Shown piece by piece: positions 1,121 to 53,015 of a stretch of DNA of 60,653 bases. The notes below the pieces were generated by a model, which saw nothing but the letters and a program-made list of their open reading frames with translations, was not told the origin of the DNA and did no database searches. This stretch comes from Rugosibacter sp. (lineage in GTDB: Bacteria; Pseudomonadota; Gammaproteobacteria; Burkholderiales; Rhodocyclaceae). Numbering within the stretch: position 1 is the stretch's first letter; each line of letters begins with the position of its first letter. The translations under genes were made by a program, and so were the position numbers. The stretch is taken from NCBI GenBank assembly GCA_036569545.1, contig DATCQI010000003.1, positions 1 through 60,653 of the forward strand, in the 5' to 3' direction.

Positions 1121-1582
1121 ATGAGCGATCAACAAGCTGTTTTTACCATCGAAAAAATTTATGTACGCGACTTTTCTGTCGAGGTACCCCATGCGCCGCA
1201 GATTTATCTGGAGCGTGAAGCGCCCGCGATTTCTGTGCAGATTCAAACCACAGCGACCGATATTAGCGATGGCGTATTTGAAGTCGTGGTGACGGTTACC
1301 GTGACAGCCAAAAAAGAAGACAAAGTTTTCTTTTTGGTTGAAGTCGCCCAAGCAGGCATTTTCCAAATTAAAAATGTGCCGCAAGAAGAGATGGAGCCTG
1401 TGCTAGCTATCGGTTGTCCCAATATCTTGTTCCCCTATGTGCGCGAAACCATTTCGGATGCCGTCAATCGCGCAGGATTTCCGCCCGTAATTCTTGCCCC
1501 CGTGAATTTTGAAGCGATGCATCAGCAACGCGCTGCTGAACAAGCCGCTACCACCAATGATGCACCCACTTCCCTGCAATAG
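1121..1582 (+). CDS. secB: Protein-export chaperone SecB
   Basis: IEKIYVRDFSVE, CPNILFPY and GFPPV..APVNF motifs. Confidence 0.96.
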   Translation: MSDQQAVFTIEKIYVRDFSVEVPHAPQIYLEREAPAISVQIQTTATDISDGVFEVVVTVTVTAKKEDKVFFLVEVAQAGIFQIKNVPQEEMEPVLAIGCPNILFPYVRETISDAVNRAGFPPVILAPVNFEAMHQQRAAEQAATTNDAPTSLQ

Positions 1583-1600
1583 TCGGCGATGGTGATACGG
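1578..1600 (+). repeat. Dispersed 23-bp motif, copy 1 (21/23)
   Basis: AATAGTCGGCGATGGTGATACGG; spans the secB stop codon and the next ORF's ATG. Confidence 0.85.
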
Positions 1601-2056
1601 CGCAAAGCGCTCTGGCGCAAAGTGGTAACGATAGTCGCCACCCTGTTTGGCGTCCTCACCGTGACACCGGCATTTGCACTGGATTTTCTTTCCATCGCGG
1701 CACCGGCTGTTTTATTTGATGCGCCATCAAGTAAAGCCAAGCCCTTGTTTGTCATCAATCCCGGCACACCGGTAGAGCGCGTCATCAGCCTGGAAGGCTG
1801 GGTCAAGGTGCGCGACAATAAAGGCGATCTTGCCTGGATAGAAAAAAAATATCTCAGCGAAACTCGCCAAGTCATAGTAGTAGTAGACCGTGCACAAATT
1901 CGTGCTGCCACGGACGATAAAGCGGCAATCCTATTTGAAGCCGAGCGCGATGTCGTCCTTACCCTGCTTGAAACCTTGCCTGATGGATGGGCCAAGGTAA
2001 AGCATCGCGATGGTCAAGAAGGTTTTATCAAGTCAACACAGGTATGGGGCTTGTGA
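1589..2056 (+). CDS. Exported protein with tandem bacterial SH3 domains
   Basis: Signal peptide ending PAFA; two GWVKV/GWAKV...G.I SH3-like repeats. Start codon uncertain. Confidence 0.8.
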   Translation: MVIRRKALWRKVVTIVATLFGVLTVTPAFALDFLSIAAPAVLFDAPSSKAKPLFVINPGTPVERVISLEGWVKVRDNKGDLAWIEKKYLSETRQVIVVVDRAQIRAATDDKAAILFEAERDVVLTLLETLPDGWAKVKHRDGQEGFIKSTQVWGL

Positions 2057-2107
2057 TGGAATGTGTCATCGAGCCAGTCCATCAAGCAAGGTATTAGAGC
2101 GCACTGC

Positions 2108-3177: not shown

Positions 3178-3663
3178 CTACGACCCGCCCGCAAACCCGT
3201 TTTGGCGCCAGGCCTCATATACCACAATCGCCACGGTATTCGATAAATTCAAACAGCGGTTGCTGGGCATCATTGGCAACCGCAGTCGATTTTCCGGAGC
3301 GATATCCGCCAGCACATGGCCAGGTAATCCGCTGGACTCTGAGCCAAAGACAAATGCATCACCCGGCGAAAAGTCGGGGCTGGCGCCATAGCCAGCATAA
3401 GGACGCATTCCTTTGATGGTTAAAGCAAATAGCTGCGCTACACCCTCCGCCTTGAGCAGCGCGCGGCAAGCGGCCCAGTCAGCATGCACAGTAACAATGG
3501 CCAGATCAACATAATCCATGCCGGCGCGGCGCAACTGCGCTGCCGAAAGACCAAATCCAAGGGGTTCCACCAGATGCAAACGCGCCCCGGCATTAGCGCA
3601 CAGGCGGATGACATTGCCCGTGTTGGGCGGAATTTCAGGAGCTATCAAAACGACATGGAACAC
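3178..3663 (-). CDS. trmL: tRNA (cytidine/uridine(34)-2'-O)-methyltransferase
   Basis: PEIPPNTGN, RRAGMDY, FGSES.GLP and LNLSN SPOUT motifs; probable GTG start at 3663. Confidence 0.93.
   Translation of the reverse strand: MFHVVLIAPEIPPNTGNVIRLCANAGARLHLVEPLGFGLSAAQLRRAGMDYVDLAIVTVHADWAACRALLKAEGVAQLFALTIKGMRPYAGYGASPDFSPGDAFVFGSESSGLPGHVLADIAPENRLRLPMMPSNRCLNLSNTVAIVVYEAWRQNGFAGGS
3369..3391 (+). repeat. Dispersed 23-bp motif, weak copy (17/23)
   Basis: AAAAGTCGGGGCTGGCGCCATAG inside trmL (peptide YGASPDF); left half conserved. Confidence 0.45.
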
Positions 3664-3762
3664 ATTCGTATCCTCAAATGCAAGGTATTTTCCCAAATAA
3701 TCAGAAGATTGGCGAAAAAACTTCGTGTAATATCAAAAACCAAACCCCTTGGAGACCATGTA

Positions 3763-5469
3763 ATGGCCCGCCCAGAAAAGATTCGGTTAGGTGATCTGCT
3801 TGTGCAGCAGGGTCTTATCACCGCCGAACAATTAAAGCATGCGCTCGACGAGCAAAAACGTACCGGACGCAAATTAGGGCGTGTTTTGGTAGAGAGCAGC
3901 TACGCCACCGAAGAAGGCATTTCCAAAGCGTTGGCGCGTCAATTGGGTGCGGATTTTATTGATTTGCGTCAATTCAATCCCAAGCCAGAACACACCAGCC
4001 TGCTACCGGAAAGCCAAGCACGGCGCTTGCGTGCGCTGGTATTGAGCGAGCGTGCCGGCATGTTGCTGGTGGGCATGGCAGATCCTACGGATCTGGCGGC
4101 CTTTGATGAAATCGCCCGGCTACTCAAGCGCGAGATTGACTTAGCGGTGGTCACCGAAAGCCAGTTAATGGGCACCATTGACCGGGCCTATACGCGCACT
4201 GAAGAAATTTCCGGCCTGGCTAAAGAACTCACGGCAGATTTGTCCGATATGCCAGCCGAGTTTGGCAACCTGCTTGGTCTCACCGCCGGCGCTGAAGACG
4301 CGCCTGTTGTCAAGCTACTGAATACCGTGTTTGAAGAGGCGTTGAAACTGCACGCCTCGGATATTCATATCGAACCGCAAGAATCCTCGCTGGTTATCAG
4401 GTTCCGCATCGATGGGGTCCTGCGCATCCAGACAGAAGCTGACGCGAAAATTTCTACCGCGCTCGTGCTGCGGCTCAAACTGATGTCCGGCTTGGATATT
4501 TCCGAAAAACGCCTGCCGCAAGATGGCCGGTTCAATATCAAGCTGCGCAATGAAGCGATTGATATCCGCATTTCAACCATGCCCACCCAGCATGGCGAAT
4601 CGGTTGTGATGCGTTTGCTCGCGCAGAACACGGGTTTGTTGCATTTAGATCGCCTGCATATGCCGCCACATATTCTGGAGCGCTTCCGCCATGCGATCGG
4701 CCGACCTTCCGGCATTGTGCTGGTGACCGGCCCGACGGGTTCAGGCAAAACCACCACGCTGTATGCCGCGCTGAATTCACTAAACACACCGGAAAAGAAA
4801 ATCATCACAGTGGAAGACCCGGTTGAATATCGGCTGCCGGGCATCAACCAGGTGCAAGTGCATGAAAAAATCGACCTGACATTTAGCCGTGTGTTGCGTT
4901 CAGCCTTGCGCCAGGATCCGGATATTGTCCTGATCGGCGAAATGCGCGACCAGGACACGGCAGAAATCGGCATGCGCGCTTCCATGACAGGCCATTTGGT
5001 GCTCTCGACCTTGCACACCAATGATGCCTTATCGACGCCTATCCGCCTGCTGGACATGGGTGTGCCGCGTTACATGGTGGCGCTCTCCGTGCAAATCGTG
5101 CTCGCGCAACGTCTGGTGCGGCTGATCTGTACGAACTGTGCAGTGCCTTACAACCTGCTGCCACATGAACATTTATGGATTAAAAGCGAATTGGAGAACC
5201 ACGTGGATGAGCACCACTATATGCATGGCCAAGGATGCAGCCACTGCAACAACACCGGCTATCAAGGGCGTCAGGCGGTCTACGAGATGCTGGAAATGAC
5301 CAACACGATAGTAGAAGCGGTTAATCGCGGCGACCCTAACGAGTTCATGGCCTTGGGGCGTCAGCAAATGGCAGGGAAAACCTTGCGCCATGATGCGGTG
5401 CGCCTGGTACGGGATGGCAAAACCACGGTGGATGAAGCCATGCGAATCAGCACTCAGCTGGATGACTAG
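3763..5469 (+). CDS. mshE: MSHA pilus extension ATPase (GspE/PilB family) with MshEN c-di-GMP-binding domain
   Basis: RLGDLLVQQGLI...LDEQ MshEN motif, Walker A GPTGSGKT, LRQDPD, CxxC...CxxC; GGAG RBS before ATG 3763. Confidence 0.9.
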   Translation: MARPEKIRLGDLLVQQGLITAEQLKHALDEQKRTGRKLGRVLVESSYATEEGISKALARQLGADFIDLRQFNPKPEHTSLLPESQARRLRALVLSERAGMLLVGMADPTDLAAFDEIARLLKREIDLAVVTESQLMGTIDRAYTRTEEISGLAKELTADLSDMPAEFGNLLGLTAGAEDAPVVKLLNTVFEEALKLHASDIHIEPQESSLVIRFRIDGVLRIQTEADAKISTALVLRLKLMSGLDISEKRLPQDGRFNIKLRNEAIDIRISTMPTQHGESVVMRLLAQNTGLLHLDRLHMPPHILERFRHAIGRPSGIVLVTGPTGSGKTTTLYAALNSLNTPEKKIITVEDPVEYRLPGINQVQVHEKIDLTFSRVLRSALRQDPDIVLIGEMRDQDTAEIGMRASMTGHLVLSTLHTNDALSTPIRLLDMGVPRYMVALSVQIVLAQRLVRLICTNCAVPYNLLPHEHLWIKSELENHVDEHHYMHGQGCSHCNNTGYQGRQAVYEMLEMTNTIVEAVNRGDPNEFMALGRQQMAGKTLRHDAVRLVRDGKTTVDEAMRISTQLDD

Positions 5470-5477
5470 GGGCTCCC

Positions 5478-6722
5478 ATGCCTGATTTCAGTTGGCGCGG
5501 CCGTAATAGTGCAGGAGAACTCGTCAAGGGCGTGATGGAAGGCGCAGCCGCCAATGCAGTCGCCGACAGTTTGCTGGGTATGCGCATCACACCGATCGAG
5601 ATCCAGCCTCAAGGCGCCTCATCATCCGCCGACGGACCAGGCGGCGTCTCTGCAACGCCGAGTTTTCAGCTCTTCAAGAGAAAAGTCGGTCCCACTGATG
5701 TACTGCTCTTTTCGCGCCAGCTACACACGCTGCTGCGCGCCGGGGTGCCAATCATGCGGGCCCTGGCCGGATTACAGGAATCACACGACAATCCAGCAAT
5801 GAAAACCGTACTCGGCGATGTGCGCGAAGGCCTGGATTCGGGACGCGACCTGTCACTCTCGCTGGCACGGCATCCGGAGGTGTTTTCGCGGTTTTACATC
5901 TCCATGGTGCGTGTAGGCGAGATGACCGGACGGCTGGAAGAAGTCTTCATCCGCCTGTTTGAGCATCTTGATTTTGAACGTTTCATGAAAGAGCAGGTGA
6001 AATCCGCCCTGCGTTATCCCTCGTTTGTACTCGCTGCAATGGCGGTTGCCATGCTGGTGATCAACATTTTTGTCATTCCGGCCTTTGCCAAAACCTTTAA
6101 AGGCTTGAACGCCGAGTTACCGCTGATGACGCGTGCGTTGATCGGATTTTCGGAATTCATGGTGAATTCCTGGCCGTTCTTGATTGCTGGCGCAATTTTA
6201 GCAGCGCTTGCCTTTAATGCCTGGCGTAAAACCGAGCAAGGCTGCTACGACTGGGACAGGCTCAAGATGAAAATCCCGGTTGCGGGAAAGATTATCCAAA
6301 AGGGTACGCTTGCCCGCTTCGCCCGCGCCTTTGCCTTATCGTCACGCAGTGGCGTGCCCATCATCCAGGCACTGAGCAATGTGGCAGAAACTGTCGATAA
6401 CGCTTTTATTGCTGCCAAAATCAAAAAGATGCGAGAAGGCATTGAGCGTGGCGAAAGCGTGCTGCGCACAACTATTTCTGCTGGTGTATTTACTCCCGTG
6501 GTGATTCAAATGGTTGCCGTTGGCGAAGAATCCGGCGCGCTGGACGATATGATGCAGGAAGTCGCCGACATGTACCAAAGCGAAGTGGAGTACGAACTCA
6601 AAACGCTTTCGCAACAAATCGAGCCTATCCTGATCGTCGCGCTCGGCGCGATGGTGCTGGTACTTGCCTTGGGTATTTTCCTGCCGATTTGGGATTTAGG
6701 CAGCACGATGATCAAGCACTGA
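5478..6722 (+). CDS. mshG: MSHA inner-membrane platform protein (GspF/PilC family)
   Basis: Two T2SSF repeats (GEMTG.LE, GEESG.LD), ALRYP, C-terminal IFLPIWD. Confidence 0.9.
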   Translation: MPDFSWRGRNSAGELVKGVMEGAAANAVADSLLGMRITPIEIQPQGASSSADGPGGVSATPSFQLFKRKVGPTDVLLFSRQLHTLLRAGVPIMRALAGLQESHDNPAMKTVLGDVREGLDSGRDLSLSLARHPEVFSRFYISMVRVGEMTGRLEEVFIRLFEHLDFERFMKEQVKSALRYPSFVLAAMAVAMLVINIFVIPAFAKTFKGLNAELPLMTRALIGFSEFMVNSWPFLIAGAILAALAFNAWRKTEQGCYDWDRLKMKIPVAGKIIQKGTLARFARAFALSSRSGVPIIQALSNVAETVDNAFIAAKIKKMREGIERGESVLRTTISAGVFTPVVIQMVAVGEESGALDDMMQEVADMYQSEVEYELKTLSQQIEPILIVALGAMVLVLALGIFLPIWDLGSTMIKH

Positions 6723-6726
6723 CCGC

Positions 6727-7290
6727 ATGCGCCAATTGTCCAGCTATCACCGCTTGCGACCGTATCCGGTCAAGCCGGCCCGTTTATGCGGATTCACTTC
6801 GTTGGAATTTGCCGTCGTTTTGGTGATTATCAGCGTAGCGGCCTATTTTCTTCTTCAGGGGTTGCTATCTACCCAGGCAGAAGCCGAACGACAGGGATTT
6901 GAAGATAACGTTGCGGCTCTTGAGCGCGCCCTCAGCTATGAGCTCATGAGCCGGGGAACCCGTGGAGAGACCACGGATAACACACTGCTACAACATGAAA
7001 ATCCCTTTCAATGGTTATCTCCCAAGCCGCTGGGTTATGCGGGTGCTTACCCCGCTCAAGGGACGCTGACGCCAGGCGGATGGTATTGGGATAGCCACCA
7101 CACAGAAGTTGTTTATCTGCCTAAAATGGCTAATCGCATTCAGTTAAGCTCTTTAGGCCATAATGGACTTGCCGACACAAACACAAGCACGCCGAAAAAA
7201 ATTCCGGAAATTCGCCTGCGGATAATGTTAACAGGCAATGGTCACGTACACTTGGAACCCGGTCACTCGTTTCAATGGCAAACCCACTGA
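6727..7290 (+). CDS. Pilin-like protein, MshF-like by position
   Basis: Prepilin-like G|FTSLEF followed by a hydrophobic helix; NPF and G.WYWD motifs; lies between mshG and mshA. Confidence 0.6.
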   Translation: MRQLSSYHRLRPYPVKPARLCGFTSLEFAVVLVIISVAAYFLLQGLLSTQAEAERQGFEDNVAALERALSYELMSRGTRGETTDNTLLQHENPFQWLSPKPLGYAGAYPAQGTLTPGGWYWDSHHTEVVYLPKMANRIQLSSLGHNGLADTNTSTPKKIPEIRLRIMLTGNGHVHLEPGHSFQWQTH

Positions 7291-7317
7291 CCATGACAGG
7301 CTTGTTGAACGCTATTT

Positions 7318-7334
7318 GTGGCTTGCTGATTGCG
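7318..7334 (+). promoter_or_regulatory. Candidate sigma54 (-24/-12) promoter of mshA
   Basis: TGGCTTGCTGATTGCG with GG-N10-GC spacing, about 150 bp upstream of the pilin gene. Confidence 0.45.
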
Positions 7335-7484
7335 TGGCTTTGCTTGAGCATTAAAGAAAAAGGCTTTTTTTGCCGTTCTCTACAGACGAAGCAAGGTTAT
7401 TCTTTTCCACATTTTGCAGTTGTTGTAATGAGCATTCGCAAACGATCAATAAACTGTTGTGCTTGAAACTGAGGAGCAATGATA

Positions 7485-8057
7485 ATGCGTAAAAATCAAA
7501 CGGGCTTTACCTTAATCGAACTGGTAGTGGTCATCACTATCCTGGGCATCCTGGCCGCCGTGGCTCTGCCGCGTTTCACCAATCTGCAGCGCGATGCGCG
7601 CATCGCCAAGCTCAATGCGGCGCGCGGTGCAGTGGGCGCAGCAGCAGCCTTGGTGCATGGTACGGCTTTGGCGCGAGGTGGTGTGGCTGATGCGGTGGCT
7701 TGTCCGGTCGCCCTCGGGTTCGGCCCGGCGATTGCGGATAACGTAACTAACCTATGTACCGAATCGGGGCTCGTGCAAATTCTGAATCTTTATCCTACCG
7801 CCAACTTGGCAGGTATCGTTGATTCAGCAGGTTTAAGCTCCACATTCCCGGCTACCGTCGCCACACTTGCTGCAGAGCAAATGTCGACCACAGGTGGCGG
7901 GGTTGGCGCAGGAGCAGTACTCACTATCCGTGTGAATGGCGGCACCAACCCGGCGACATGTTTCTTTACCTACACCGCGCCAACCGTTGCAGGTGGAGCT
8001 GCCATCATTGGCGCAACATCACCGTCCTCGGCAAACGGGGATACAACGGGCTGTTAA
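7485..8057 (+). CDS. mshA: MSHA major pilin (type IVa)
   Basis: MRKNQTG|FTLIELVVVITILGILAAVALPRF class III signal, ARIA.L motif, four Cys; GAGGAG RBS. Confidence 0.9.
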   Translation: MRKNQTGFTLIELVVVITILGILAAVALPRFTNLQRDARIAKLNAARGAVGAAAALVHGTALARGGVADAVACPVALGFGPAIADNVTNLCTESGLVQILNLYPTANLAGIVDSAGLSSTFPATVATLAAEQMSTTGGGVGAGAVLTIRVNGGTNPATCFFTYTAPTVAGGAAIIGATSPSSANGDTTGC

Positions 8058-8094
8058 ATCACGAGTTAATCATCATTGCTGTATTTTCCTGAAG

Positions 8095-8129
8095 CAGGGC
8101 CAGGCATATTTCTCCTGACCCTGTTTTTT
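8095..8129 (+). terminator. Intrinsic terminator after mshA
   Basis: CAGGGCCAGG-N9-CCTGACCCTG stem (one mismatch) followed by T6. Confidence 0.7.
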
Positions 8130-8170
8130 GGTTTTTGGTGAATGCCTGCTTTGCCATCCGCTCTGTTTTA

Positions 8171-8193
8171 CCGTATCACCAGCGCCGACTTTT
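8171..8193 (-). repeat. Dispersed 23-bp motif, copy 2 (23/23)
   Basis: CCGTATCACCAGCGCCGACTTTT on the top strand, in the mshA-mshI intergenic region. Confidence 0.9.
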
Positions 8194-8317
8194 TTTATTC
8201 GCTTTCCGCCCGCTGCACTATTTCAATCTACCCAATTGGGCAGGCTTTAAAGTTGATTTTCCCCGCTGAATCACCGAGTAACGCAGTATAGTCGCGGAAA
8301 TTGGTCTTATTAGTCTT

Positions 8318-9247
8318 ATGCTCCCATTTTTCAAAATACCCCGCGAACCCGGTTGGCTGGCGATTGGACAAAGTCCGCACCGGTTTGACTTCGTGCGTGT
8401 GCAACGCACACAGGGTCGCTTGCCTCAAGTGTTGTTGGCGGAATCCATCGAGCGCGGCGCAGACGATGCGGCAACTTTGGCTGCCCTCAAAAAACCCCTG
8501 CAGCTGAATCGCTCTCATCTCACAGCCTTGCTTCCCGCTGGCCAGTATCAAGTGGTTTTGACAGATGTCGTCGACGGCCCGCTTATTGAAGCACGCGAGA
8601 TCATTCGCTGGAAACTCAAGGATCAAGTCGGCTTCCCCGTGGACACGGCCGCGATTGATCTCTTGCCGATTCCTCCACTAGGCCATGCACCGCAAGTCTA
8701 TGCGCTACTGGCATCCGAGAAGGTCATGACGCCGCTGGTGCAATCCTTCCAATCAGCCAAACTCGACCTGGCCGTCGTTGACGTGCCCGAGCTTGCCCAG
8801 CGCAACCTTTCCGCTTTGCTCGAAGAAGACGACCGCGGCTTGGCCATGCTCATTTTTGATGAGTCAGAAGGACTGCTGACCTTCACCTTTGGCAGAGAGC
8901 TACTCGTGGCGCGTCATATTGAAATTTCCGCAGAACAGTTGCTATTGGCAAATGCAGAGCGGCGAGAGCAACTCTTTGAACGCATCGCGCTGGATATCCA
9001 GCGTTCGCTGGATAATTTTGACCGCAGCTACAGCATGGTGCCACTCTCCGGCCTTGTCGTCAGTGCCATTCCCGGCGTAACTGGGTATATGGATTACCTG
9101 CGCAATAACCTGTCTCTCCCTGTCGTGGCGTTGAACCTGGCCGACATCATCGATTTCAACGCCGCACCGGCATTGCTTGATCCGCAGCGCCAACTCCAGT
9201 GCCTGCGTGCCCTGGGTGCCGCCTTGCGCGAGGAACCCGCATCTTGA
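8318..9247 (+). CDS. mshI: MSHA biogenesis protein MshI (PilM-like)
   Basis: IRWKLKD, DVPELAQRN and LDIQRSLDNF motifs; first gene of the mshI-N block. Confidence 0.8.
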   Translation: MLPFFKIPREPGWLAIGQSPHRFDFVRVQRTQGRLPQVLLAESIERGADDAATLAALKKPLQLNRSHLTALLPAGQYQVVLTDVVDGPLIEAREIIRWKLKDQVGFPVDTAAIDLLPIPPLGHAPQVYALLASEKVMTPLVQSFQSAKLDLAVVDVPELAQRNLSALLEEDDRGLAMLIFDESEGLLTFTFGRELLVARHIEISAEQLLLANAERREQLFERIALDIQRSLDNFDRSYSMVPLSGLVVSAIPGVTGYMDYLRNNLSLPVVALNLADIIDFNAAPALLDPQRQLQCLRALGAALREEPAS

Positions 9248-9969
9248 GCGCGCAAATCAATCTTTACCACGCGCGGTTTTTGAAGGTTCACGATTGGCTG
9301 AACCTGAATAACCTGGCGGTGGCGGCAGTCGCCTTGTTCAGCGTCCTGGGCGTGGTTTCGCTCATCGCCCACCGTGATCTTTCGCGGCAGCAAAACGCAG
9401 CAATCGCCACCAGCAGCGAATTGAAAGCCGTCAAGCTTGCGCTGGACCAAGCCAACCAACTGGTCAGCCGGCCAGCCAATCCACAATTCGTAGCTGAGGT
9501 TAGTCATGCGCAAGCGGCACTCATCCGTCGCGAAGAAATCGCCCGCTTGCTGGAAAGCGGTACCATCGGTAACAGCGGCGGGTTTTCCGTCTATCTGCTG
9601 GGGTTTGCGCACCAGGTGCCAGCCGGTTTATGGCTCACCGGCTTTACGCTGGGCGCGGGCGGCAGCGATATGGAGATTCGCGGCAGCACATTCGACGAAA
9701 AAATTGTGCCTGATTACATCCGCCGCCTGGGAAGTGAGAAAATTTTCCAGGGTCGGCAATTTTCAGCGCTCAGCCTGCAACGTGATGCTACCGCCGATGC
9801 CGGGTCAATTAATAATACAATCAGCACCACCCAAACGGCCGCAGCCACCGTCTCACCAGCGCCGACTTTTGGTGGGGAGGCCGCGCAACCCAAGCGCGTC
9901 AATGCACCCCGGCGGCCGATTCATTTTGTGCTCACGCCAACCCCCGTATCGCAGGGAGCCAAGCCATGA
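9244..9969 (+). CDS. MSHA biogenesis protein MshI2 (PilN-like)
   Basis: TTG start overlapping the mshI stop; QINLY N-terminus, one TM helix, GLWLTGF motif. Confidence 0.78.
   Translation: MSAQINLYHARFLKVHDWLNLNNLAVAAVALFSVLGVVSLIAHRDLSRQQNAAIATSSELKAVKLALDQANQLVSRPANPQFVAEVSHAQAALIRREEIARLLESGTIGNSGGFSVYLLGFAHQVPAGLWLTGFTLGAGGSDMEIRGSTFDEKIVPDYIRRLGSEKIFQGRQFSALSLQRDATADAGSINNTISTTQTAAATVSPAPTFGGEAAQPKRVNAPRRPIHFVLTPTPVSQGAKP
9848..9870 (-). repeat. Dispersed 23-bp motif, copy 3 (22/23)
   Basis: CCGTCTCACCAGCGCCGACTTTT inside mshI2 (peptide TVSPAPTF). Confidence 0.88.
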
Positions 9970-10673
9970 ATTCGCTGCGCATGCGCTGGCAAAGCTGGTA
10001 TGCGCAGTTTCTGGCGCGCCCGCGCCGGGAACGGGCGATTCTCGCCTTCGCCCTGCTCTTTGGAGGAGGTTTCTTGCTGTTTAATTTCGGCATCGATAGC
10101 GTCTGGCAAAAAACTCGCACAGCACAAGCTGAAACCCTGGCCGCGCGGACCGAACTGTTGCAGCAAAAAGCACAGCTTGCTGCAGTCCAGGCGGTGGCAG
10201 ACCCCGATACGGCGAACCGGCAACGCCTGGTGCAACTTAAAAACGCCATGAATGCTGTCAATACACGACTAACACGCTTTGAACAGGGCATGGTCTCACC
10301 TGCACGCATGCGCGGCTTTCTGGAAGACCTGCTCGCGCGCAATCGCGGTATTGAACTCCTTGAATTAAAAACCCTGCCGCCTGAACCCGTAGGAAACCCC
10401 CTGAAAAATACGCCCGGCGCGAATCATCAAGCTGCAGCCAGTAGTGCAGAGAACACAACCACGCAGCCTACGGATGGCATTTGGCAACACGGCATCGAGC
10501 TACGTCTGGCAGGCAGTTATCTTGATTTGCTGAATTACCTGACCAGCCTGGAAGCCCTGCCGCAACGCCTGATGTGGAATCGGCTTGAACTCAAAACCAC
10601 GGTCTACCCGCGAAACGAGATGATGTTGCGCGTGTACACTTTGAGCTTGGACAAAGATTGGTTGGTCATGTGA
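9966..10673 (+). CDS. mshJ: MSHA biogenesis protein MshJ (PilO/GspM-like)
   Basis: RER followed by a TM helix; HGIEL.L.GSY..LL.YL..LE and YTLSLDK.WL motifs. Confidence 0.85.
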   Translation: MNSLRMRWQSWYAQFLARPRRERAILAFALLFGGGFLLFNFGIDSVWQKTRTAQAETLAARTELLQQKAQLAAVQAVADPDTANRQRLVQLKNAMNAVNTRLTRFEQGMVSPARMRGFLEDLLARNRGIELLELKTLPPEPVGNPLKNTPGANHQAAASSAENTTTQPTDGIWQHGIELRLAGSYLDLLNYLTSLEALPQRLMWNRLELKTTVYPRNEMMLRVYTLSLDKDWLVM

Positions 10674-11059
10674 TGCGGCGCGCAATAGCCATTGCCCTTT
10701 CTCTTTTATCACTATCAGCAGTCGCCCAGGTGCCAGACCCCATGCGGCCAGCAGATACGCCGATAGCTGACGGCTCATCTTTAAGTACCAATAACAGCTC
10801 GGGCCTGCAAGCCATTATTGTGCGGCCAGGCAAAAGGCGATCCACAGCATTGATTGCCGGGCAGACGGTGCGTCTAGGCAGCAAAGTGGGTGAAAAACGC
10901 GTCGTTAAAATTATCGAAAATGAAGTGACATTGCAGGGTGATGATGGCCGGGAAGTGTTACGGCTGACCCCATCCATCCAAAAAATCCCGGTGGCTAAAA
11001 AACCGCGTGCCGCCACCCACCACGTGAAGCAACTTCCGACGGGAATCTCTAAAAAATGA
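10673..11059 (+). CDS. mshK: MSHA biogenesis protein MshK
   Basis: Signal peptide, DPMRP motif, LQAII and ALI.G; TGATG coupling to mshJ. Confidence 0.8.
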   Translation: MRRAIAIALSLLSLSAVAQVPDPMRPADTPIADGSSLSTNNSSGLQAIIVRPGKRRSTALIAGQTVRLGSKVGEKRVVKIIENEVTLQGDDGREVLRLTPSIQKIPVAKKPRAATHHVKQLPTGISKK

Positions 11060-12810: not shown

Positions 12811-12822
12811 CTGGCAAAGGCC

Positions 12823-13665: not shown

Positions 13666-13672
13666 GGTTGCT

Positions 13673-32981: not shown

Positions 32982-33896
32982 ATGGCTTACGCATTATCTC
33001 ACCAGCAGTTTCCAACCATTTCTGGCAGCGGAAGTATCGAGGCTTATATTTCAGCCGCAAATCGTATGCCTATGCTTAGTGAAGCCGAAGAGCTTGCCTT
33101 TGCGCACCGCTTCGCTAACGAAGGAGACATTGAGGCTGCCCGCGCTTTAGTGACATCCCATCTGCGGTTAGTCATTGCAATTGCCCGTGGCTATCTCGGC
33201 TATGGCTTACCTCACGCTGATTTAATTCAGGAAGGCAATGTGGGTTTAATGAAAGCAGTCAAGCGGTTTGATCCAAATCGGGGTGTACGGCTGGTTTCTT
33301 TTGCTATGCACTGGATCAAGGCCGAGATTCATGAATACATTATCAAAAACTGGCGACTCGTTAAAATCGCCACGACCAAATCACAGCGAAAACTGTTTTT
33401 CAACTTGCGCAGCATCAAGGCATCACTAGCACAGCAAGATGAATCACTGCCAGGTTCACAACGAGATTTTGGTACGCTTGATGTCGCTGGTGTAAAACTG
33501 ATCGCCCAGCGGTTGGGTGTGAAACCAGAAGAAGTCATCGAGATGGAAACCCGCTTCACGGGTGCCGACGTATCGCTAGAGCCGACATCTGACGATGATG
33601 AAGATCATTTCGCCCCGATTGCCTACCTCACCGCGGATAGCTGTGACGAGCCCGTAGCGATTCTTGAGCGCAAGGAATTTGACCACTTGCAAGAGGAAGG
33701 GCTAAAAGGTGCGTTGGCCAGTCTTGATGAACGTAGCCGTGAGATTATTCAGCGTCGCTGGCTGGTGCGCGAGGAAGAGTCCTCTGCAACGCTGCATGAG
33801 CTTGCCGAAGAGTATGGTGTCTCAGCCGAACGTATCCGCCAAATTGAGGCTAAGGCACTTCAAAAAATGAAAGGCGCACTACTCGCCGCCGCTTGA
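32982..33896 (+). CDS. rpoH: RNA polymerase heat-shock sigma factor sigma32
   Basis: DLIQEGNVGLMKAV, RpoH box QRKLFFNLR, VSAERIRQIE. Confidence 0.97.
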   Translation: MAYALSHQQFPTISGSGSIEAYISAANRMPMLSEAEELAFAHRFANEGDIEAARALVTSHLRLVIAIARGYLGYGLPHADLIQEGNVGLMKAVKRFDPNRGVRLVSFAMHWIKAEIHEYIIKNWRLVKIATTKSQRKLFFNLRSIKASLAQQDESLPGSQRDFGTLDVAGVKLIAQRLGVKPEEVIEMETRFTGADVSLEPTSDDDEDHFAPIAYLTADSCDEPVAILERKEFDHLQEEGLKGALASLDERSREIIQRRWLVREEESSATLHELAEEYGVSAERIRQIEAKALQKMKGALLAAA

Positions 33897-35447: not shown

Positions 35448-35464
35448 AATATAATTTTTGAAAT

Positions 35465-37093: not shown

Positions 37094-37127
37094 AAAAACT
37101 GGCGCTCCTAAAGGAGCGCCAGTTTTT
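37094..37127. terminator. Bidirectional intrinsic terminator
   Basis: Perfect 16-bp inverted repeat AAAAACTGGCGCTCCT-AA-AGGAGCGCCAGTTTTT between convergent genes. Confidence 0.88.
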
Positions 37128-37151
37128 AAATATCGATGGCGGCAGTCGCTG

Positions 37152-38003: not shown

Positions 38004-38027
38004 CAATAATCTCCCTTCAAAAATTTT

Positions 38028-38842: not shown

Positions 38843-38952
38843 TGGTTTAGATACCAGCTTTGTACAATAAATCCAAAAAAAACAGTAGCCGCAAGCACAG
38901 CAAGAATGATCCCTGTGAGCAGATTTCTGGTTTTTACCGTAAGTGAAGACAT
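38839..38952 (-). CDS. Small single-TM cytochrome oxidase-associated protein (37 aa)
   Basis: Hand translation MSSLTVKTRNLLTGIILAVLAATVFFGFIVQSWYLNH; stop overlaps the ctaG TTG start. Confidence 0.75.
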   Translation of the reverse strand: MSSLTVKTRNLLTGIILAVLAATVFFGFIVQSWYLNH

Positions 38953-38983
38953 TATGCTTACCCTATGCTAAACGATCGTCTGC

Positions 38984-40576: not shown

Positions 40577-40646
40577 GTAGCTCTCCTGATATTTCTGATT
40601 AAGCATGGGTTTTCATGAGCAATGAGTGAGACGGGTGCCTGACGGA

Positions 40647-41789: not shown

Positions 41790-41985
41790 CTCTAAACCTC
41801 TTATATCAAGAACAAAACTTTTAAAAACAAAAATTTAAAATACTTATTAACCTTTGACTACGCTTATTTTCTGCGCCAATCAATTCCGAAAAATTGGCGC
41901 GCAGTTTATCATGGCTTTTTATCTTGTTCGGCGCCCCAAGTAAATCATTACGCGGCAGAATACCCCGACCAAGATGGTGATATCT

Positions 41986-43371: not shown

Positions 43372-43421
43372 ACAGTCATTCCGTGAAATAATATCTGCGG
43401 ATTCTAACCCTTGGCCCTCTT

Positions 43422-44063
43422 ATGCCGCGTCGTAGACCCGCACCTGCCGACTCTCGCCATTTGCGTCGTGCTATCGCCATTGTCGCCGCACGCTTGATGG
43501 CCGAGGATGGATTAACCGATTACGCTGCCGCGAAACGCAAAGCCGCGCGCAGCCTTGGCGCAGAACATGGCGAAGGTCTGCCCACCAATGAAGAAGTACA
43601 AGTCGAACTTCGCCTTTACCAATCGATTTACCACGAGGATGAGCAAAATGATCGCTTGCAAGCACTACGCCAAACAGCCCTGAATGCCATGCAGCTACTG
43701 AATGAATTTCAACCCCGCCTGAGGGGTGCAGTACTGGACGGCACCGCAGTTCGCTATTCGCCTATTCACCTGCAATTAGTCGCCGATAGCAGTAAAGATG
43801 TAGAAATCTGGCTACTAACCAATCAGATCGCCTTTGATACAGAATCCCTGCCGTATCAAAATTCCAAGAGTCCGGAAGATCGGTTTGTTTTAAATGTCGA
43901 CGACACAACTGTTTTGGTGGATGTTTTCGCTACTCAAAGAAGGCATAGCGGAGTACCTAGCGCAGCCATGTCAGAAGTAAAAACACTACTAACCAATTCG
44001 ACAGCCGCTACACCTCTGTCTGAATCACAATTCACAACACCTTCTGATTACAAGATTGTCTAA
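43422..44063 (+). CDS. Conserved hypothetical protein with degenerate nucleotidyltransferase-like fold
   Basis: AARLMAEDG..DY..AKRKAA N-terminus; GAVLDGTA...SPI.L segment. Confidence 0.7.
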   Translation: MPRRRPAPADSRHLRRAIAIVAARLMAEDGLTDYAAAKRKAARSLGAEHGEGLPTNEEVQVELRLYQSIYHEDEQNDRLQALRQTALNAMQLLNEFQPRLRGAVLDGTAVRYSPIHLQLVADSSKDVEIWLLTNQIAFDTESLPYQNSKSPEDRFVLNVDDTTVLVDVFATQRRHSGVPSAAMSEVKTLLTNSTAATPLSESQFTTPSDYKIV

Positions 44064-44065
44064 TT

Positions 44066-44626
44066 ATGCAAAATCGACTGGTCCGCTTTTTGTTACTCGC
44101 AATAATCGCCATTAGTGCAGGTGGCTCCGGCTATTTGATCAGCCGCGAACGGCTTGCGCTTGACAGCACTTCATCATCCGCAACAGCATCAACGCAACCT
44201 GCGGTGGAAAAATTACTGCGTACCTCCTTTGCCACCACAGAAGGGCAATGGCAAACCCTGGCCGCCTGGCGCGGCAAGGTGTTGATAGTCAATTTCTGGG
44301 CGACATGGTGTCCCCCCTGCCGTGAAGAAATGCCTATGTTCTCCGGCTTGCAAAAGAAATACAAAGACAAAGGCTTGCAATTTGTCGGTATCAGCATTGA
44401 TAGCATCGATAAAGTACGCGAATATCAGTCCATTGAAAAGCTGGCCTATCCACTTTTAATGGGTTCGCCAGATGCCATGAGCTTGAGCGGAGCACTAGGA
44501 AACTTTTCGCAAGCGCTGCCGTTTACCGTCCTCATTACCCGTCAAGGAAAACTTGATTCTGTCAAAATAGGACGCTTCACTGAAGACGAACTTGAAATGC
44601 GCCTACAAGCACTACTTAAACAATAG
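44066..44626 (+). CDS. TlpA-family thiol:disulfide oxidoreductase
   Basis: NFWATWCPPCREEMP; N-terminal membrane anchor. Confidence 0.9.
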   Translation: MQNRLVRFLLLAIIAISAGGSGYLISRERLALDSTSSSATASTQPAVEKLLRTSFATTEGQWQTLAAWRGKVLIVNFWATWCPPCREEMPMFSGLQKKYKDKGLQFVGISIDSIDKVREYQSIEKLAYPLLMGSPDAMSLSGALGNFSQALPFTVLITRQGKLDSVKIGRFTEDELEMRLQALLKQ

Positions 44627-44665
44627 ACTAGACAAACGGTAGCCATTTGCGGCAAACTCGCGCCC

Positions 44666-45157
44666 ATGACGACGCAAAAACACAGTAAAAGTACACCTAG
44701 CAAAAAACAAAATTCAGTGGTTCTCGTACTTCACGGGCCCAATTTGAATCTACTGGGCACGCGTGAGCCAGCAATCTATGGCCACACAACGCTTGCCAAT
44801 ATCCATACTGCGATGGAAACTCGGGCACGTGCAGATGGCGTTCGTCTGGAAAGCTTTCAAAGCAATCACGAAGGGGAATTAATCGACCGCGTGCAATCCG
44901 CCCGTGAGCAAGGCGTCGCTTTCATTATTATCAATCCCGCAGCCTACACCCATACCAGCATTGCCTTACGGGATGCCCTGGCTGCAGTTGCCATCCCCTT
45001 TATTGAGGTCCACCTCTCGAACATTCATTCACGCGAATCGTTTCGTCGGCAATCGTATTTCTCGGACATCGCAACCGGGGTCATTGCGGGCCTTGGCGCT
45101 CAGGGCTACACCTTGGCGCTGGAAGCTGCATTAATGCGGCTAAACGAAACTGCCTAA
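44666..45157 (+). CDS. aroQ: Type II 3-dehydroquinate dehydratase
   Basis: [29 protein letters not shown]. Confidence 0.96.
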
Positions 45158-45243
45158 ACCCCACACAAGCATTGCACCACCAATGGAAACACGGGCGGCG
45201 CTCCTCTTCTTTATTTATCATCCCCTGAAAGGAACCCTTTTCT

Positions 45244-45720
45244 ATGGACCTGAGAAAACTCAAGACCTTAATTGATCTTGTACAGAACTCCGGCATTTCC
45301 GAGCTTGAAATTAGCGAAGGCGAAGAAAAGATTCGCATCGCCAAACACTTGCCCACACAGCAAACCACCATGATCGGCCTGCCCATGGCCCATACCGCAG
45401 GATATGGCAACCCCATGCCCGGTGATCACGCCTCTGTCGCCGCGTCACCAGCGCCGACTTCTGCTGCCGCAGAACCGGTGGATACAGGCCATAAGCTCAA
45501 AGCGCCCATGGTAGGCACTTTTTATCGCGCCAGCGGCCCGGATGCGCCTTCGTTTGTTGAAGTGGGACAAGCAGTAAAAGCCGGACAAACGCTCTGCATT
45601 ATCGAAGCCATGAAATTAATGAATGAAATCGAATCCGACGTCTCAGGCACTGTCACCGCCATCCTGGCCGAAAATGGCCAAGCCGTGGAATACGGTCAAC
45701 CGTTGTTCGTGATCAGCTGA
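45244..45720 (+). CDS. accB: Acetyl-CoA carboxylase biotin carboxyl carrier protein
   Basis: PMVGTFY and the EAMKLMNEI biotinylation motif. Confidence 0.97.
45440..45462 (-). repeat. Dispersed 23-bp motif, copy 10 (20/23)
   Basis: CCGCGTCACCAGCGCCGACTTCT in the accB Ala/Pro linker (ASPAPTS). Confidence 0.72.
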
Positions 45721-50504: not shown

Positions 50505-51353
50505 ATGGCAACGTCGTTGACACAATCTGCCGGAAATCTGCGTGCGCTATTCCGCTTAAGTCGCACCGCGCTGCATCTGGCAGGCGGCATGCTGACTGTC
50601 GCGCTGATCTATCCATTCATCACACAAGGCACCCGCCTGGCACTCAAGCAACGCTGGTCGCGGCAGCTTCTCACGATGCTTGGCGTGAGTCAAAAAGTCG
50701 GGGCTGGTGATACGCCGCGAAGCAAGTACCCTTGGGGTGCGACAAATAAAGCAATAGCAGCCCACCCGACCGGCCTGTTGGTCGCCAACCACATTTCATT
50801 TCTCGATATTTTTGTCATCAACGCCTGGGCACCAGCCGCTTTTGTGGCCAAGGACGATGTACGCAACTGGCCTTTGCTCGGCTGGCTCAGCCACCACACA
50901 GACACAATCTTCATGCAGCGCGGCTCACGCCGTGCAGCGCACGCTGCGCGCGACCATCTCGTCGGCCAGTTACGTGCGGGGCAACTCATCGCGGTGTTTC
51001 CTGAAGGCACTACCAGCGATGGTCACACCGTGCAGCCGTTTCACGGCGCGTTATTCCAAAGCGCGATTGACGCAGGAGTACCCGTGATGCCAGTCGCCTT
51101 GCGCTATATCGACGCGCAAACCCAGCAGTCCAGCCATGCCGCCGATTTTGTCGGTGACATGACACTAGTCAGTTGCCTGTGGTCAATTGCCGCCAGCACG
51201 GGACTTATCGCGCAGATCGAACCCTTGCCAGCGCTCGCCCCCGATAGCCTTGATCGTCGCCACCTTGCAGCACGAGCGCATCACGCTGTCACGCACCGAC
51301 TGAAGCAAATGACATCAGAGCGGGAAACTGTAAAGCGGTCAATTCCGGCCTGA
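50505..51353 (+). CDS. Lysophospholipid acyltransferase (PlsC family)
   Basis: NHISFLD, FVAK..V..WP, FPEGT; carries a repeat-derived peptide. Confidence 0.88.
   Translation: MATSLTQSAGNLRALFRLSRTALHLAGGMLTVALIYPFITQGTRLALKQRWSRQLLTMLGVSQKVGAGDTPRSKYPWGATNKAIAAHPTGLLVANHISFLDIFVINAWAPAAFVAKDDVRNWPLLGWLSHHTDTIFMQRGSRRAAHAARDHLVGQLRAGQLIAVFPEGTTSDGHTVQPFHGALFQSAIDAGVPVMPVALRYIDAQTQQSSHAADFVGDMTLVSCLWSIAASTGLIAQIEPLPALAPDSLDRRHLAARAHHAVTHRLKQMTSERETVKRSIPA
50693..50740 (+). repeat. 23-bp motif copy 11 (21/23) followed by the hairpin-like element in reverse orientation
   Basis: AAAAGTCGGGGCTGGTGATACGC, then AGCAAGTACCCTTGGGGTGC (18/20 to the reverse complement of 31180-31199). Confidence 0.82.
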
Positions 51354-52175
51354 AGGCTTCACCTGCTGCGGACACGGCAGACAAAACACGCGCCGGTCGT
51401 CCAGCCGCACTGCTGTCAACGCGCCGCCCCACAGGCAGCCGGTGTCAATCGCCAGCAAGTCCGACTGTTCATGATAGCCCAGCGCCGACCAATGCCCGCA
51501 AACAATCAACTGACCGGCGCTCGCCCGCGCAGGCATTGCGAACCACGGCATGCATCCTGCCGGCCCTTCTGCCGGCGGAGATTTCGCGCCGCGAGCGCGC
51601 AACTCTATCGCCCCGTCAAGAGTCACGTAACGCATGCGCGTCATCGCATTCACTACCACGCGCAGCCTGTCCCAGCCGGTGAGATCATCCCGCCAGGCAG
51701 CCGGTTCCAAACCCCACATATGTGCCAGGAAATCGCGGTAGTCCGGCGCAGTCAGCGCAGCAGAAACTTCATCTGACAATGCTTTTGCTCGCACTACCGT
51801 CCACTCTGGCAATAGCCCGGCATGCACCATCGCCCAGGCGCCCTCCACATGAACCAGTGGTTGCGCACGCAACCAATCCAACAACTCATCACGATCCGGC
51901 GCAGCGAGTACCGCAGCGAGCGTATCTTCTTTATTCGTCCGCCCAAACCCTTCCGCCTGCATCACTAAATGCAGATCATGATTGCCCAGCACAACCGCCG
52001 CCGCCGCACCCAGCGACTTCACATAGCGCAGCACTTCCAGCGACTGCGGGCCGCGGTTAACGAGGTCGCCAACAAACCAGAGACGATCTCTGGTCGGGTC
52101 AAAATCAAGGGAGTCGATCAGTTGGCGCAGCGGATCAAAGCAGCCCTGGATATCGCCAATTGCGTAAGTGCCCAT
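51339..52175 (-). CDS. apaH: Symmetrical bis(5'-nucleosyl)-tetraphosphatase
   Basis: GDIQGC, GDLVNRGP, LGNHD, HAG, GHWSALG, DTGC.WG. Confidence 0.96.
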   Translation of the reverse strand: MGTYAIGDIQGCFDPLRQLIDSLDFDPTRDRLWFVGDLVNRGPQSLEVLRYVKSLGAAAAVVLGNHDLHLVMQAEGFGRTNKEDTLAAVLAAPDRDELLDWLRAQPLVHVEGAWAMVHAGLLPEWTVVRAKALSDEVSAALTAPDYRDFLAHMWGLEPAAWRDDLTGWDRLRVVVNAMTRMRYVTLDGAIELRARGAKSPPAEGPAGCMPWFAMPARASAGQLIVCGHWSALGYHEQSDLLAIDTGCLWGGALTAVRLDDRRVFCLPCPQQVKPSGRN

Positions 52176-52232
52176 AAGTCTATTAACGCCGGGATAAAGC
52201 GGCAGGATATCGCAGAAAAATGACAGCTTATC

Positions 52233-53015
52233 TTAAACTGGAGCCGCTGCCCGCAAAGAGATTTCACCAGAAAGAATGCGTTCGAGGTGACCATCAACTT
52301 CCAGCAGCAGCGCGCCATCTTTATCTACACCACGACAAATGCCGTGTCGCGGGGGCGAAAAATCCGATAGCAGCACAACAGGTGAATCCTGAAAGGCGTG
52401 ACGCGCCAGCCAATCCGTGCGCAATGCCGCGAAACCCGCGATCGCAAAATTTTCCAGCACGGTCAACAGCTCGTTCAGCAGTGTCGCCAGCAGTACATTG
52501 ATCTCGATAGGCTTACCCAAAGCAGCAGCTGTCGCCCGCACATCAGCCGGCAATGCCGCAGGCAAACGCCGATTGATACCGATACCAATAACGGCTACAT
52601 GAGGTGTGCCGGGTACGAGTTCTATCAGAATGCCGCCCAGCTTTTTACCCTGATACAGAATGTCATTAGGCCACTTGAGCGCCGTATCACCAACGCCGAC
52701 TTTTTCGAGCGCACATGCTACTGCCACCCCCACGGCCAACGAAAGGCCAATCGGCACACTGCCCGGCGCAAACCGCCAGAGCAGAGAAAAGGTAAGGCTG
52801 TCAGCCGGTGCACCAATCCACACGCGGCCACGCCGCCCACGCCCAGCAGTTTGTAGCGTTGCGGCCACCACGGTACCCGAGGCGGCACCCGCCTCGGCGC
52901 AACTCAGCAACACCGAATTGGTGGAATCGCATTGCGGCAGCAGGTCGACGTCAAAACGGCGCGACGCCGGGCCTAGTGCAGTGGTCAGACGCGTTGCATC
53001 AAGCGCTGAAGTCAT
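52233..53015 (-). CDS. birA: Biotin-[acetyl-CoA carboxylase] ligase (no N-terminal HTH)
   Basis: STN, QTAGRGRRGR.W, KWPND, KLGGIL, GIGIN. Confidence 0.93.
   Translation of the reverse strand: MTSALDATRLTTALGPASRRFDVDLLPQCDSTNSVLLSCAEAGAASGTVVAATLQTAGRGRRGRVWIGAPADSLTFSLLWRFAPGSVPIGLSLAVGVAVACALEKVGVGDTALKWPNDILYQGKKLGGILIELVPGTPHVAVIGIGINRRLPAALPADVRATAAALGKPIEINVLLATLLNELLTVLENFAIAGFAALRTDWLARHAFQDSPVVLLSDFSPPRHGICRGVDKDGALLLEVDGHLERILSGEISLRAAAPV
52682..52704 (-). repeat. Dispersed 23-bp motif, copy 12 (22/23)
   Basis: CCGTATCACCAACGCCGACTTTT inside birA (peptide KVGVGDT just before LKWPND). Confidence 0.88.

What the first reader, a model, noticed from the sequence alone, without database searches (positions are those of the whole stretch)
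1578..52704. Dispersed non-palindromic 23-bp motif (AAAAGTCGGCGCTGGTGATACGG) distributed like a DNA uptake sequence
Seen: 12 copies at 19/23 or better, starting at 1578(+), 8171(-), 9848(-), 15237(-), 19839(+), 22259(-), 25267(+), 27066(+), 31172(+, split), 45440(-), 50693(+) and 52682(-), plus a 17/23 copy at 3369(+). That is about 1 per 5 kb, with no strand bias, no palindromy and no regular spacing. A rough hand estimate (uniform bases, fixed consensus) expects about 0.001 chance matches at 19/23 or better in this window, although the consensus was derived post hoc. Established: Neisseriaceae DUS (GCCGTCTGAA) and Pasteurellaceae USS (AAGTGCGGT) are asymmetric, strand-unbiased and accumulate in permissive parts of core genes. 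Inference: this may be an undescribed self-DNA uptake signal or a genome-wide protein-binding tag in another betaproteobacterial lineage. One end (GCCGTCTCAC in the lolB copy) is 8/10 to the Neisseria DUS and the other (AAAGTCGG) loosely resembles the USS core. Both resemblances may be coincidental.
Basis: partly seen in the sequence, partly recalled or inferred. Interest (0 to 1): 0.92.

Follow-up and report, generated by a model that had tools for sequence, protein, structure and literature searches.

The report
Long uptake-like DNA tag in Rugosibacter
A 25-letter DNA word with a 60-base helically phased A/T tail on one side is written about 400 times, evenly and on both strands, through this likely Rugosibacter genome, and in genus-specific spellings through 12 genera of its family; it is likely a self-tag that favours uptake of kin DNA, a trick so far shown in only two bacterial families, but no reader protein was found and uptake is untested.

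Summary
The motif is real and genome-wide. The core is 25 bp (AAAAGTCGGCGCTGGTGATACGGCG, 34.6 bits), with 410 copies in 2.07 Mb against 0 in a Markov null. It ignores strand and gene direction. Copies avoid each other within about 2 kb in either orientation, and silent sites inside them diverge 14% against 38-40% outside. On its 3' side only, the core is followed by about 60 bp of A/T dinucleotides phased at 10.5 bp (z about 13), the layout of the Haemophilus uptake signal but longer. It occurs in 30 of 201 Rhodocyclaceae genomes (12 genera, several dialects) and in none of 389 genomes from other families of the order. One lineage lost it, and one genus carries it apart from the rest. It is neither DUS nor USS by sequence, nor a mobile element. 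Best reading (0.6): an independent, long DNA uptake sequence. Against: ComEA was found in only 4 of 30 carriers, there are no terminator pairs, and no receptor candidate tracked the motif. Main rival: a site wrapped by an intracellular protein. The scan noted this motif before in three other genomes; my paper searches did not find it described.

The parts
1578..1602 (+). Core copy across the secB stop and the start of the SH3-domain gene; tail region 1603-1665
   Evidence: 35.8 bits; genes
5642..5666 (-).
   Evidence: 23.5 bits
8169..8193 (-). Core copy in the spacer after the major pilin-like gene; tail region 8106-8168
   Evidence: 40.2 bits; exact 23-mer
9846..9870 (-). Core copy inside the PilN-like gene
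   Evidence: 41.1 bits
12972..12996 (+).
   Evidence: 20.9 bits
15235..15259 (-). Core copy directly after the ychF stop
   Evidence: 36.5 bits
19839..19863 (+). Core copy inside lolB (antisense); tail region 19864-19926
   Evidence: 43.0 bits
22257..22281 (-). Core copy near the 5' end of mutM/fpg
   Evidence: 31.1 bits
25267..25291 (+). Core copy inside the first M16-type peptidase gene
   Evidence: 35.5 bits
27066..27090 (+). Core copy near the 5' end of the second M16-type peptidase gene
   Evidence: 40.5 bits
31199..31223 (+).
   Evidence: 18/23 and 11/23
33566..33590 (-). Degenerate copy in rpoH, below the threshold; a closely similar site scores 23.4 bits in G010
   Evidence: 15.1 bits
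45438..45462 (-). Core copy in the accB linker (reads [AV]SPAPT in AccB); the same site is kept in several genera and survives as a relic in motif-free G083
   Evidence: 33.9 bits
50693..50717 (+). Core copy inside an acyltransferase gene
   Evidence: 33.5 bits
52680..52704 (-). Core copy inside birA
   Evidence: 41.1 bits
53273..53297 (+).
   Evidence: 19.3 bits

Best explanation
This is a dispersed DNA signal of about 85 bp (a 25-bp sequence-specific core plus a one-sided, helically phased A/T tail) that likely works as a DNA uptake sequence. Shown: the core, the tail, about 410 copies per 2 Mb, no link to strand or gene direction, mutual avoidance over about 2 kb, conservation at silent sites, absence from three sampled islands, genus-level dialects, and ComEC, PilQ, DprA and ComM in this genome. 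Inferred: a clade-specific protein of the uptake path grips the core in double-stranded DNA while the tail lets the adjoining 60 bp bend or wrap. Fragments that carry a site would enter and recombine more often, so sites accumulate by drive wherever proteins tolerate them. One site per incoming fragment would suffice, so a second site within about 2 kb gains little.
For: 410 copies against 0 in the null; 209 +/201 -; 156 sense/135 antisense. Neighbour pairs within 1 kb: 9 same-strand and 9 opposite-strand against 34.7 and 30.7 expected; never two copies in one spacer (95 copies in 95 spacers); 1.41/kb in convergent against 0.43/kb in divergent spacers. Fourfold sites differ from G010 at 36 of 254 inside copies against 370 of 976 in flanks (p = 5e-14); amino-acid divergence is 0.157 in flanks against 0.098 elsewhere; 0 copies in 60 kb sampled from G010's largest gaps, which shares no DNA with G000. 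These match the DUS features in PMC2397512. Tail: AA/TT period 10.5 bp over the 63 bp downstream, z = 13.3 (n = 388), separately in sense, antisense and other copies (z 7.0, 8.3, 6.8), in G010 (z 7.6) and in other genera (z 7.2); upstream z about 2 at most. The USS has helically phased T tracts on one side of its core (PMC3458573). Dialects by genus, as for DUS (PMC3630211). ComEC in 60 of 60 genomes; PilQ, DprA and ComM in 5 of 5; ComEA in G000.
Against: No uptake or transformation data exist here. Short ComEA-like hits (E < 1e-16) appeared in only 4 of 30 carriers against 10 of 30 non-carriers, and a second model found none above cut-off in 5 closed carriers (three weak hits were RuvA-like). 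ComEC, PilQ, DprA and ComM are also in non-carriers, so they do not discriminate. No pilin tested tracks the motif. Unlike DUS and USS there are no inverted terminator pairs: only 2 pairs lie closer than 300 bp. The density (0.2/kb) is about five times lower than for DUS or USS. In the ordinary G010 stretch, DNA unshared with G000 held as many copies as shared DNA (0.20 against 0.18/kb; G000 is 84% complete), and the three island samples were picked because they lacked strict matches. G010 shows a mild leading-strand excess (114 against 69, permutation p = 0.006). In the g97-type dialect AA/TT alone showed no period (z 0.5); only the broader measures did (WW z 4.2, W z 3.4, same phase).
Confidence: 0.6

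Rival explanations
1. The element is a binding site for an intracellular protein that wraps about 60 bp on one side of a specific core (a nucleoid organiser, or a loader for gyrase or a condensin), placed every few kb to manage chromosome shape or supercoiling.
For: A 60-bp phased arm is far longer than the two USS tracts and close to the 47-bp periodic arms of the gyrase motif (PMC6379681). Copies are densest between convergent genes. ComEA was not found in most carriers.
Against: The gyrase motif is symmetric and degenerate, whereas this one is one-sided with a 34.6-bit core. GyrA shows no column or insertion that separates carriers from non-carriers among 28 full-length sequences. Stretches of 80-150 kb in closed G010 lack strict matches. 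The word has been lost (G083) and is patchy on the tree, which is awkward for a basic chromosome function.
Confidence: 0.2
2. The word is a self-tag read after DNA entry, for example stopping a nuclease or loading recombination proteins in the manner of Chi, so that tagged DNA survives and recombines.
For: It would give the same drive, even spacing and dialects without needing ComEA. Viral contigs and islands in non-carriers bear near-perfect copies.
Against: Chi-type words are short and strongly polar (recalled). Here polarity is 51% in G000, 58% in G126 (p = 0.63), 66% in G113 (p = 0.26, n = 50) and 62% in G010. Viral loci hold only 0.074 extra copies/kb against 0.198 in the host.
Confidence: 0.11
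3. The element is a packaging-start (pac-like) signal for a gene-transfer agent or resident phage, spread by transduction bias.
For: pac sites are asymmetric, about 20 bp, and some have bent flanks (recalled). About 180 viral stretches hold the strict word.
Against: Only 12 G000 proteins matched 1.1 Mb of motif-bearing viral DNA, and by their N-termini they look like integrases and housekeeping proteins, not head or terminase genes (the genome is 84% complete). Avoidance is equal for both orientations, whereas packaging is directional. In phages the recurrent sites are in methyltransferase tails and the tail is weak (z 2.3 after dereplication).
Confidence: 0.05
4. The copies are ends or remnants of a mobile repeat (MITE, REP, IS), or operators of a transcription factor.
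For: 25% of copies are intergenic against 8% expected; some islands hold longer repeats that include the word.
Against: 291 of 410 copies lie within genes, mostly in three frames. There is no target-site duplication; only 6 and 18 of 402 copies share an upstream or downstream flank; the copies fold about like random DNA. Copies are sparsest in divergent spacers and have no fixed distance to starts. No Rfam match.
Confidence: 0.04

Closest known systems
Uptake signal sequence (USS) of Pasteurellaceae (PMC3458573, PMC7811141, PMC2397512: passages; PMC12616744: abstract and outline)
   Same: An asymmetric core that begins with an A run and has helically phased A/T tracts on one side; hundreds of copies on both strands; tolerated in genes; thinner in non-shared DNA. 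The left end AAAGTCGG is the USS core with one base missing.
   Different: The core is 25 bp and 34.6 bits instead of 9 bp. It lacks the GCGG inner core that uptake needs. The tail runs about six turns instead of two and is statistical rather than a fixed tract. There are no terminator pairs, the density is about 0.2/kb instead of about 1/kb, and the hosts are environmental Betaproteobacteria.
DNA uptake sequence (DUS) of Neisseriaceae and its dialects (PMC3630211, PMC2397512: passages)
   Same: Genus-level dialects around an invariant frame; conserved copies in permissive parts of core genes; absence from recently acquired DNA.
   Different: DUS is 10-12 bp, needs a CTG core that the 8/10 look-alike lacks, often pairs in terminators, and is read by ComP. 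No pilin tested here tracks the motif.
DNA gyrase binding motif of E. coli (PMC6379681: passages)
   Same: An arm of about 50-60 bp with a 10.5-10.75-bp period, which suggests wrapping on a protein.
   Different: The gyrase motif is two-armed, symmetric and degenerate; this element is one-armed with a sharp core, and GyrA of carriers is unremarkable.
Chi, KOPS, matS, SlmA and Noc sites (recalled)
   Same: Chromosome-wide words read by a protein.
   Different: Those are short and polar, or palindromic and tied to ori or ter; this one is long, non-palindromic, at most weakly polar and spread round the whole chromosome.

Membership tests
DNA uptake sequences (class) | Hundreds of copies, far above chance, on both strands | tested here: met
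   410 against 0; 209/201
DNA uptake sequences (class) | Copies conserved as DNA, in permissive parts of genes | tested here: met
   Fourfold divergence 0.142 against 0.379; flank amino-acid divergence 0.157 against 0.098; accB linker
DNA uptake sequences (class) | Scarce in recently acquired DNA | tested here: inconclusive
   0 in 60 kb of G010 islands, but these were chosen from gaps; unshared DNA in the ordinary stretch held 0.20/kb; least typical genes 0.115/kb against about 0.18 in the middle bins
DNA uptake sequences (class) | Dialects that follow lineages | tested here: met
   12 genera
DNA uptake sequences (class) | Full competence machinery in carriers | tested here: inconclusive
   ComEC 30 of 30 carriers; PilQ, DprA, ComM in 4 of 4 carriers tried; ComEA 4 of 30
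DNA uptake sequences (class) | The motif raises DNA uptake and transformation | not testable with these tools
   Needs a bench assay
Pasteurellaceae USS | Core AAGTGCGGT with inner GCGG | tested here: not met
   11 copies against 13.1 expected; the motif reads TCGG
Pasteurellaceae USS | Helically phased A/T tracts on one side of the core | tested here: met
   z = 13.3 downstream, about 2 upstream
Neisseriaceae DUS | GCCGTCTGAA or a dialect with the CTG core | tested here: not met
   5 copies against 4.2 expected; the look-alike has CTC or ATC
Neisseriaceae DUS | ComP-type receptor that co-varies with the word | tested here: inconclusive
   PF16732 hits 27 of 30 carriers and 28 of 30 non-carriers; the operon is swapped between subtypes within one genus
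DUS and USS | Frequent inverted pairs in terminators | tested here: not met
   2 pairs closer than 300 bp, none closer than 100 bp, among 249 gaps
Chi / KOPS | Strong replichore polarity | tested here: not met
   51%, 58%, 62%, 66% in four genomes; only G010 significant
matS / SlmA / Noc / parS sites | Palindromic and confined to, or excluded from, ori or ter | tested here: not met
   Non-palindromic; 10-24 strict copies in each twelfth of closed G010
MITE / REP / IS end | Shared flanks, target duplication or hairpin | tested here: not met
Gyrase motif | Two symmetric periodic arms round a degenerate centre | tested here: not met
   One arm and a sharp core; GyrA unremarkable

The most novel reading that the evidence does not exclude
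A third, independently evolved self-DNA uptake code in environmental Rhodocyclaceae. It is read by an unknown, transferable receptor that recognises 25 bp and wraps the next 60 bp, works without ComEA in most carriers, has split into genus-level dialects that could act as barriers to gene flow, was gained separately or transferred in genus g13, and was lost in G083.
Probability: 0.45. Interest if true: 0.9.

Novelty: new variant of a known kind. Interest (0 to 1): 0.78.

Why it matters
Sequence-specific DNA uptake is described for two host-associated families only (abstract of 10.1101/2025.10.24.684340). A third case in free-living water and soil bacteria, with a signal more than twice as long, at least six spellings, one loss and one separate gain, would show that the trait evolves repeatedly. 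If the site is read inside the cell instead, it would be a new kind of chromosome-wide wrapped site. Either way the word marks phage and island DNA that has passed through this clade.

Tried and rejected
Reader candidates that did not track the motif. (1) PilE/ComP-like pilin: 27 of 30 carriers, 28 of 30 non-carriers; the pilE-fimT-pilV-pilW operon differs in subtype even between G000 and G006/G010. (2) MshO-like pilin: 23 of 30 against 15 of 30, not found in g52. (3) The pilin beside a 1096-aa protein: 27 of 30 against 22 of 30; the large protein has no Pfam family and only unnamed look-alikes. (4) ComEA. (5) ComEC: present everywhere; three columns differ between groups but may be plain ancestry. 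(6) GyrA: no separating column. (7) PilQ: two subtypes among carriers. RNA role: no link to gene direction, folding near random, no Rfam hit. A de novo search of 7-71 kb from each of 9 non-carriers found no comparable word; it recovered 2 of 3 positive controls, so it is weak. Plasmid and cultured-phage collections gave chance-level matches only. The tail test on g97, g13 and g52 copies from genome loci had too few sites (27, 12, 12) and was inconclusive. An integron reading of the G104 cluster was rejected: it is a duplicated locus with RTX-like repeats. A whole-proteome presence/absence comparison could not be run.
Full report
Observation. The 'split' copy is two partial matches, 11/23 and 18/23. 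In the genome (G000, 2.07 Mb, 53% GC, 84% complete) 336 sites lie within 4 mismatches. An iterated matrix gives a 25-bp core of 34.6 bits with 410 copies at 16 bits or more, against 0 in an order-5 Markov genome and 0 in the reversed genome. Fourteen of them lie in the window. Genes for the context tests came from my own simple caller (2051 genes, 90% coding); the window's genes were named with NCBIfam and Pfam. The organism is likely Rugosibacter: 6 of 7 loci from records named Rugosibacter had best hits to G000 proteins at 89-97% identity, against at most 88% for loci under other names.

Distribution in the genome. Strands are even (209/201). 291 copies lie in genes (156 sense, 135 antisense), mostly in three frames that read like [14 protein letters not shown] and RRxxSADF. 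102 are intergenic, 25% against 8% expected. Spacers between convergent genes hold 1.41/kb, tandem 0.58/kb and divergent 0.43/kb; tandem copies show no orientation (26/30); no spacer holds two. Copies avoid each other whatever their orientation: pairs within 500 bp are 1 and 2 against 18.0 and 15.4 expected, within 2 kb 39 and 34 against 66 and 58. There are no inverted terminator pairs, no target duplications and few shared flanks. Replichore bias is 132 against 125 in G000, oriented by contig skew on 75 contigs. It is not significant in closed G126 (100 of 101 sites listed) or G113 (50 sites). In closed G010 it is 114 against 69 at the best split (permutation p = 0.006). My rough estimate, from no call, is that base skew alone would give about 57% for this G-rich word. 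All twelfths of G010 hold copies.

Selection on the DNA. Against G010 (339 kb aligned), fourfold sites differ at 36 of 254 inside copies, 370 of 976 in flanks and 18,628 of 47,052 elsewhere, while amino-acid divergence is raised in the flanks (0.157 against 0.098). Of 63 aligned sites, 43 were kept cleanly; several of the other 20 are alignment gaps over intact copies. One site in the AccB linker is kept across genera. Three 20-kb samples from the largest gaps of G010 had no copy, no DNA shared with G000, and 57-65% GC. They were chosen from gaps, and unshared DNA in the ordinary stretch was not depleted.

The tail. Downstream of the core, AA/TT frequency oscillates with a 10.5-bp period for about 60 bp (n = 388, z = 13.3 against codon-preserving shifts). 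It does so in sense, antisense and other copies separately, in G010 (n = 92) and in other genera (n = 193). Upstream the signal is z about 2 at most. In viral copies it was absent before dereplication (n = 158) and weak after (n = 96, z = 2.3, same phase). In 123 dereplicated copies of the g97-type dialect from metagenomes (66% GC) I tried three measures: AA/TT gave nothing (z 0.5), while WW (z 4.2) and W (z 3.4) gave period 10.5 in the same phase, downstream only. The H. influenzae USS has two helically phased T tracts on one side of its core, and their shape aids uptake (PMC3458573, PMC7811141; passages). That a phased tail means bending or wrapping is inference.

Range and dialects. A strict scan of 2 of 64 parts of the GTDB collection gave 125 loci, named mostly Rhodocyclaceae, Sulfuritalea, Rugosibacter and Sulfurisoma; a few carry other labels. 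A loose pattern found 60-794 matches in 30 of 201 family genomes (12 of 83 genera) and 0-27 in the other 171, with controls of 0-31. All 12 same-genus genomes carry it. None of 389 genomes from other families of the order rose above background. Spellings differ by genus: g3 changes the 3' end, g2 and g91 the 5' end, g97 and g13 read AGTCAG, g52 reads CAGTTGG. Trees place motif-free G083 inside the carriers, with a relic in accB. Holding all carriers plus G083 in one clade is rejected (p-AU 0.0008), but not once g13 is left out (p-AU 0.40; 30 genomes, four markers, groups chosen after seeing earlier trees). Non-carriers hold a few perfect copies in islands: all 5 strict copies of G130 lie in a metal-resistance island beside guaA. 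About 180 viral stretches hold the strict word; 78 loci gave 0.074 extra copies/kb.

Machinery. G000 has ComEC, ComEA, PilQ, DprA and ComM. ComEC is in all 60 genomes tried, carriers or not. Short ComEA-like hits appeared in 4 of 30 carriers and 10 of 30 non-carriers. The strong hits in frames of about 800 aa are Tex by their N-termini (the Tex assignment is from my own knowledge). No pilin tested, nor GyrA, tracked the motif.

Verdict. The element works most likely like an uptake sequence (0.6): it shares the population-level signatures listed for DUS (PMC2397512) and the layout of the USS, but it is a member of neither family. A wrapped intracellular site (0.2) and a post-entry self-tag (0.11) remain open.

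Literature. Ten searches showed no paper describing this motif or competence in these genera. For the two letter searches I saw 20 of 121 and 20 of 38 listings, all unrelated by title. Subscription papers are not covered. I read passages of PMC2397512, PMC3630211, PMC3458573, PMC7811141 and PMC6379681, and the abstract and outline of PMC12616744 and 10.1101/2025.10.24.684340. I read no supplements; genome-wide motif tables there could list it. The scan's own notes record what appears to be the same motif in three other genomes. The visible lines of those notes do not mention the tail, but they are cut short.

Noticed in passing
L173:2800-4600 (viral contig): Five tandem units of about 316 bp, each with a motif copy and an attC-like end, lie near an integrase gene: an integron-like array of apparently non-coding cassettes that carry the word.
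   Followed up: partly
L143, L148, L156, L162, L172, L187, L196, L197, L208, L210 (viral contigs): Small phage DNA methyltransferase-like genes carry the motif in their 3' tail (reads FEDAKVGAG[DE]TAVQ), often just upstream of a second methyltransferase-like gene.
   Followed up: partly
L269-L271 (G130:C1:1455001-1515000): An island beside guaA with integrase, AlpA-like, metal-resistance, transposase and folP-like genes holds all strict copies of this non-carrier, all on one strand; G000 has a related integrase beside guaA on C169.
   Followed up: partly
L273:8000-9900 (G110): A cluster of canonical-spelling copies inside longer repeats round small genes, in a genome whose own dialect differs: likely DNA from another carrier genus.
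   Followed up: partly
window 3484-14785: An MSHA-like pilus operon (ATPase, platform protein, pilins, secretin) with four motif copies.
   Followed up: partly
window 31224-45437: A 14-kb stretch without a copy at 16 bits, covering ftsEX, rpoH and the AT-richer cytochrome c oxidase operon; the putative ribosomal-protein cluster on C165 is also free of copies.
   Followed up: no
L264 and L443 against G000 C109/C139: The pilE-fimT-pilV-pilW operon is of different subtypes within one genus, and a motif copy sits just upstream of it in G006, G010 and G022.
   Followed up: partly
L268:3766-7056 (G000 C39:218-3478): A 1096-aa protein of no Pfam family beside a pilin, in what looks like a third pilus-like locus.
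   Followed up: partly
G000 C178:3524-4513: An integron-integrase-like gene (61% to a viral-contig copy) in the genome.
   Followed up: no
L266:9094-9750 (G010): A very short pilin frame followed by a 153-aa secreted-looking protein and an ABC transporter, possibly a two-chain pilin (the comparison is recalled).
   Followed up: no
window 18711-18784: A tRNA gene between prs and ispE.
   Followed up: no
motif positions 7-11, 13-17, 21-25: The core contains three YGGYG-like units at 6-8 bp spacing, which may reflect a repeated binding module.
   Followed up: no
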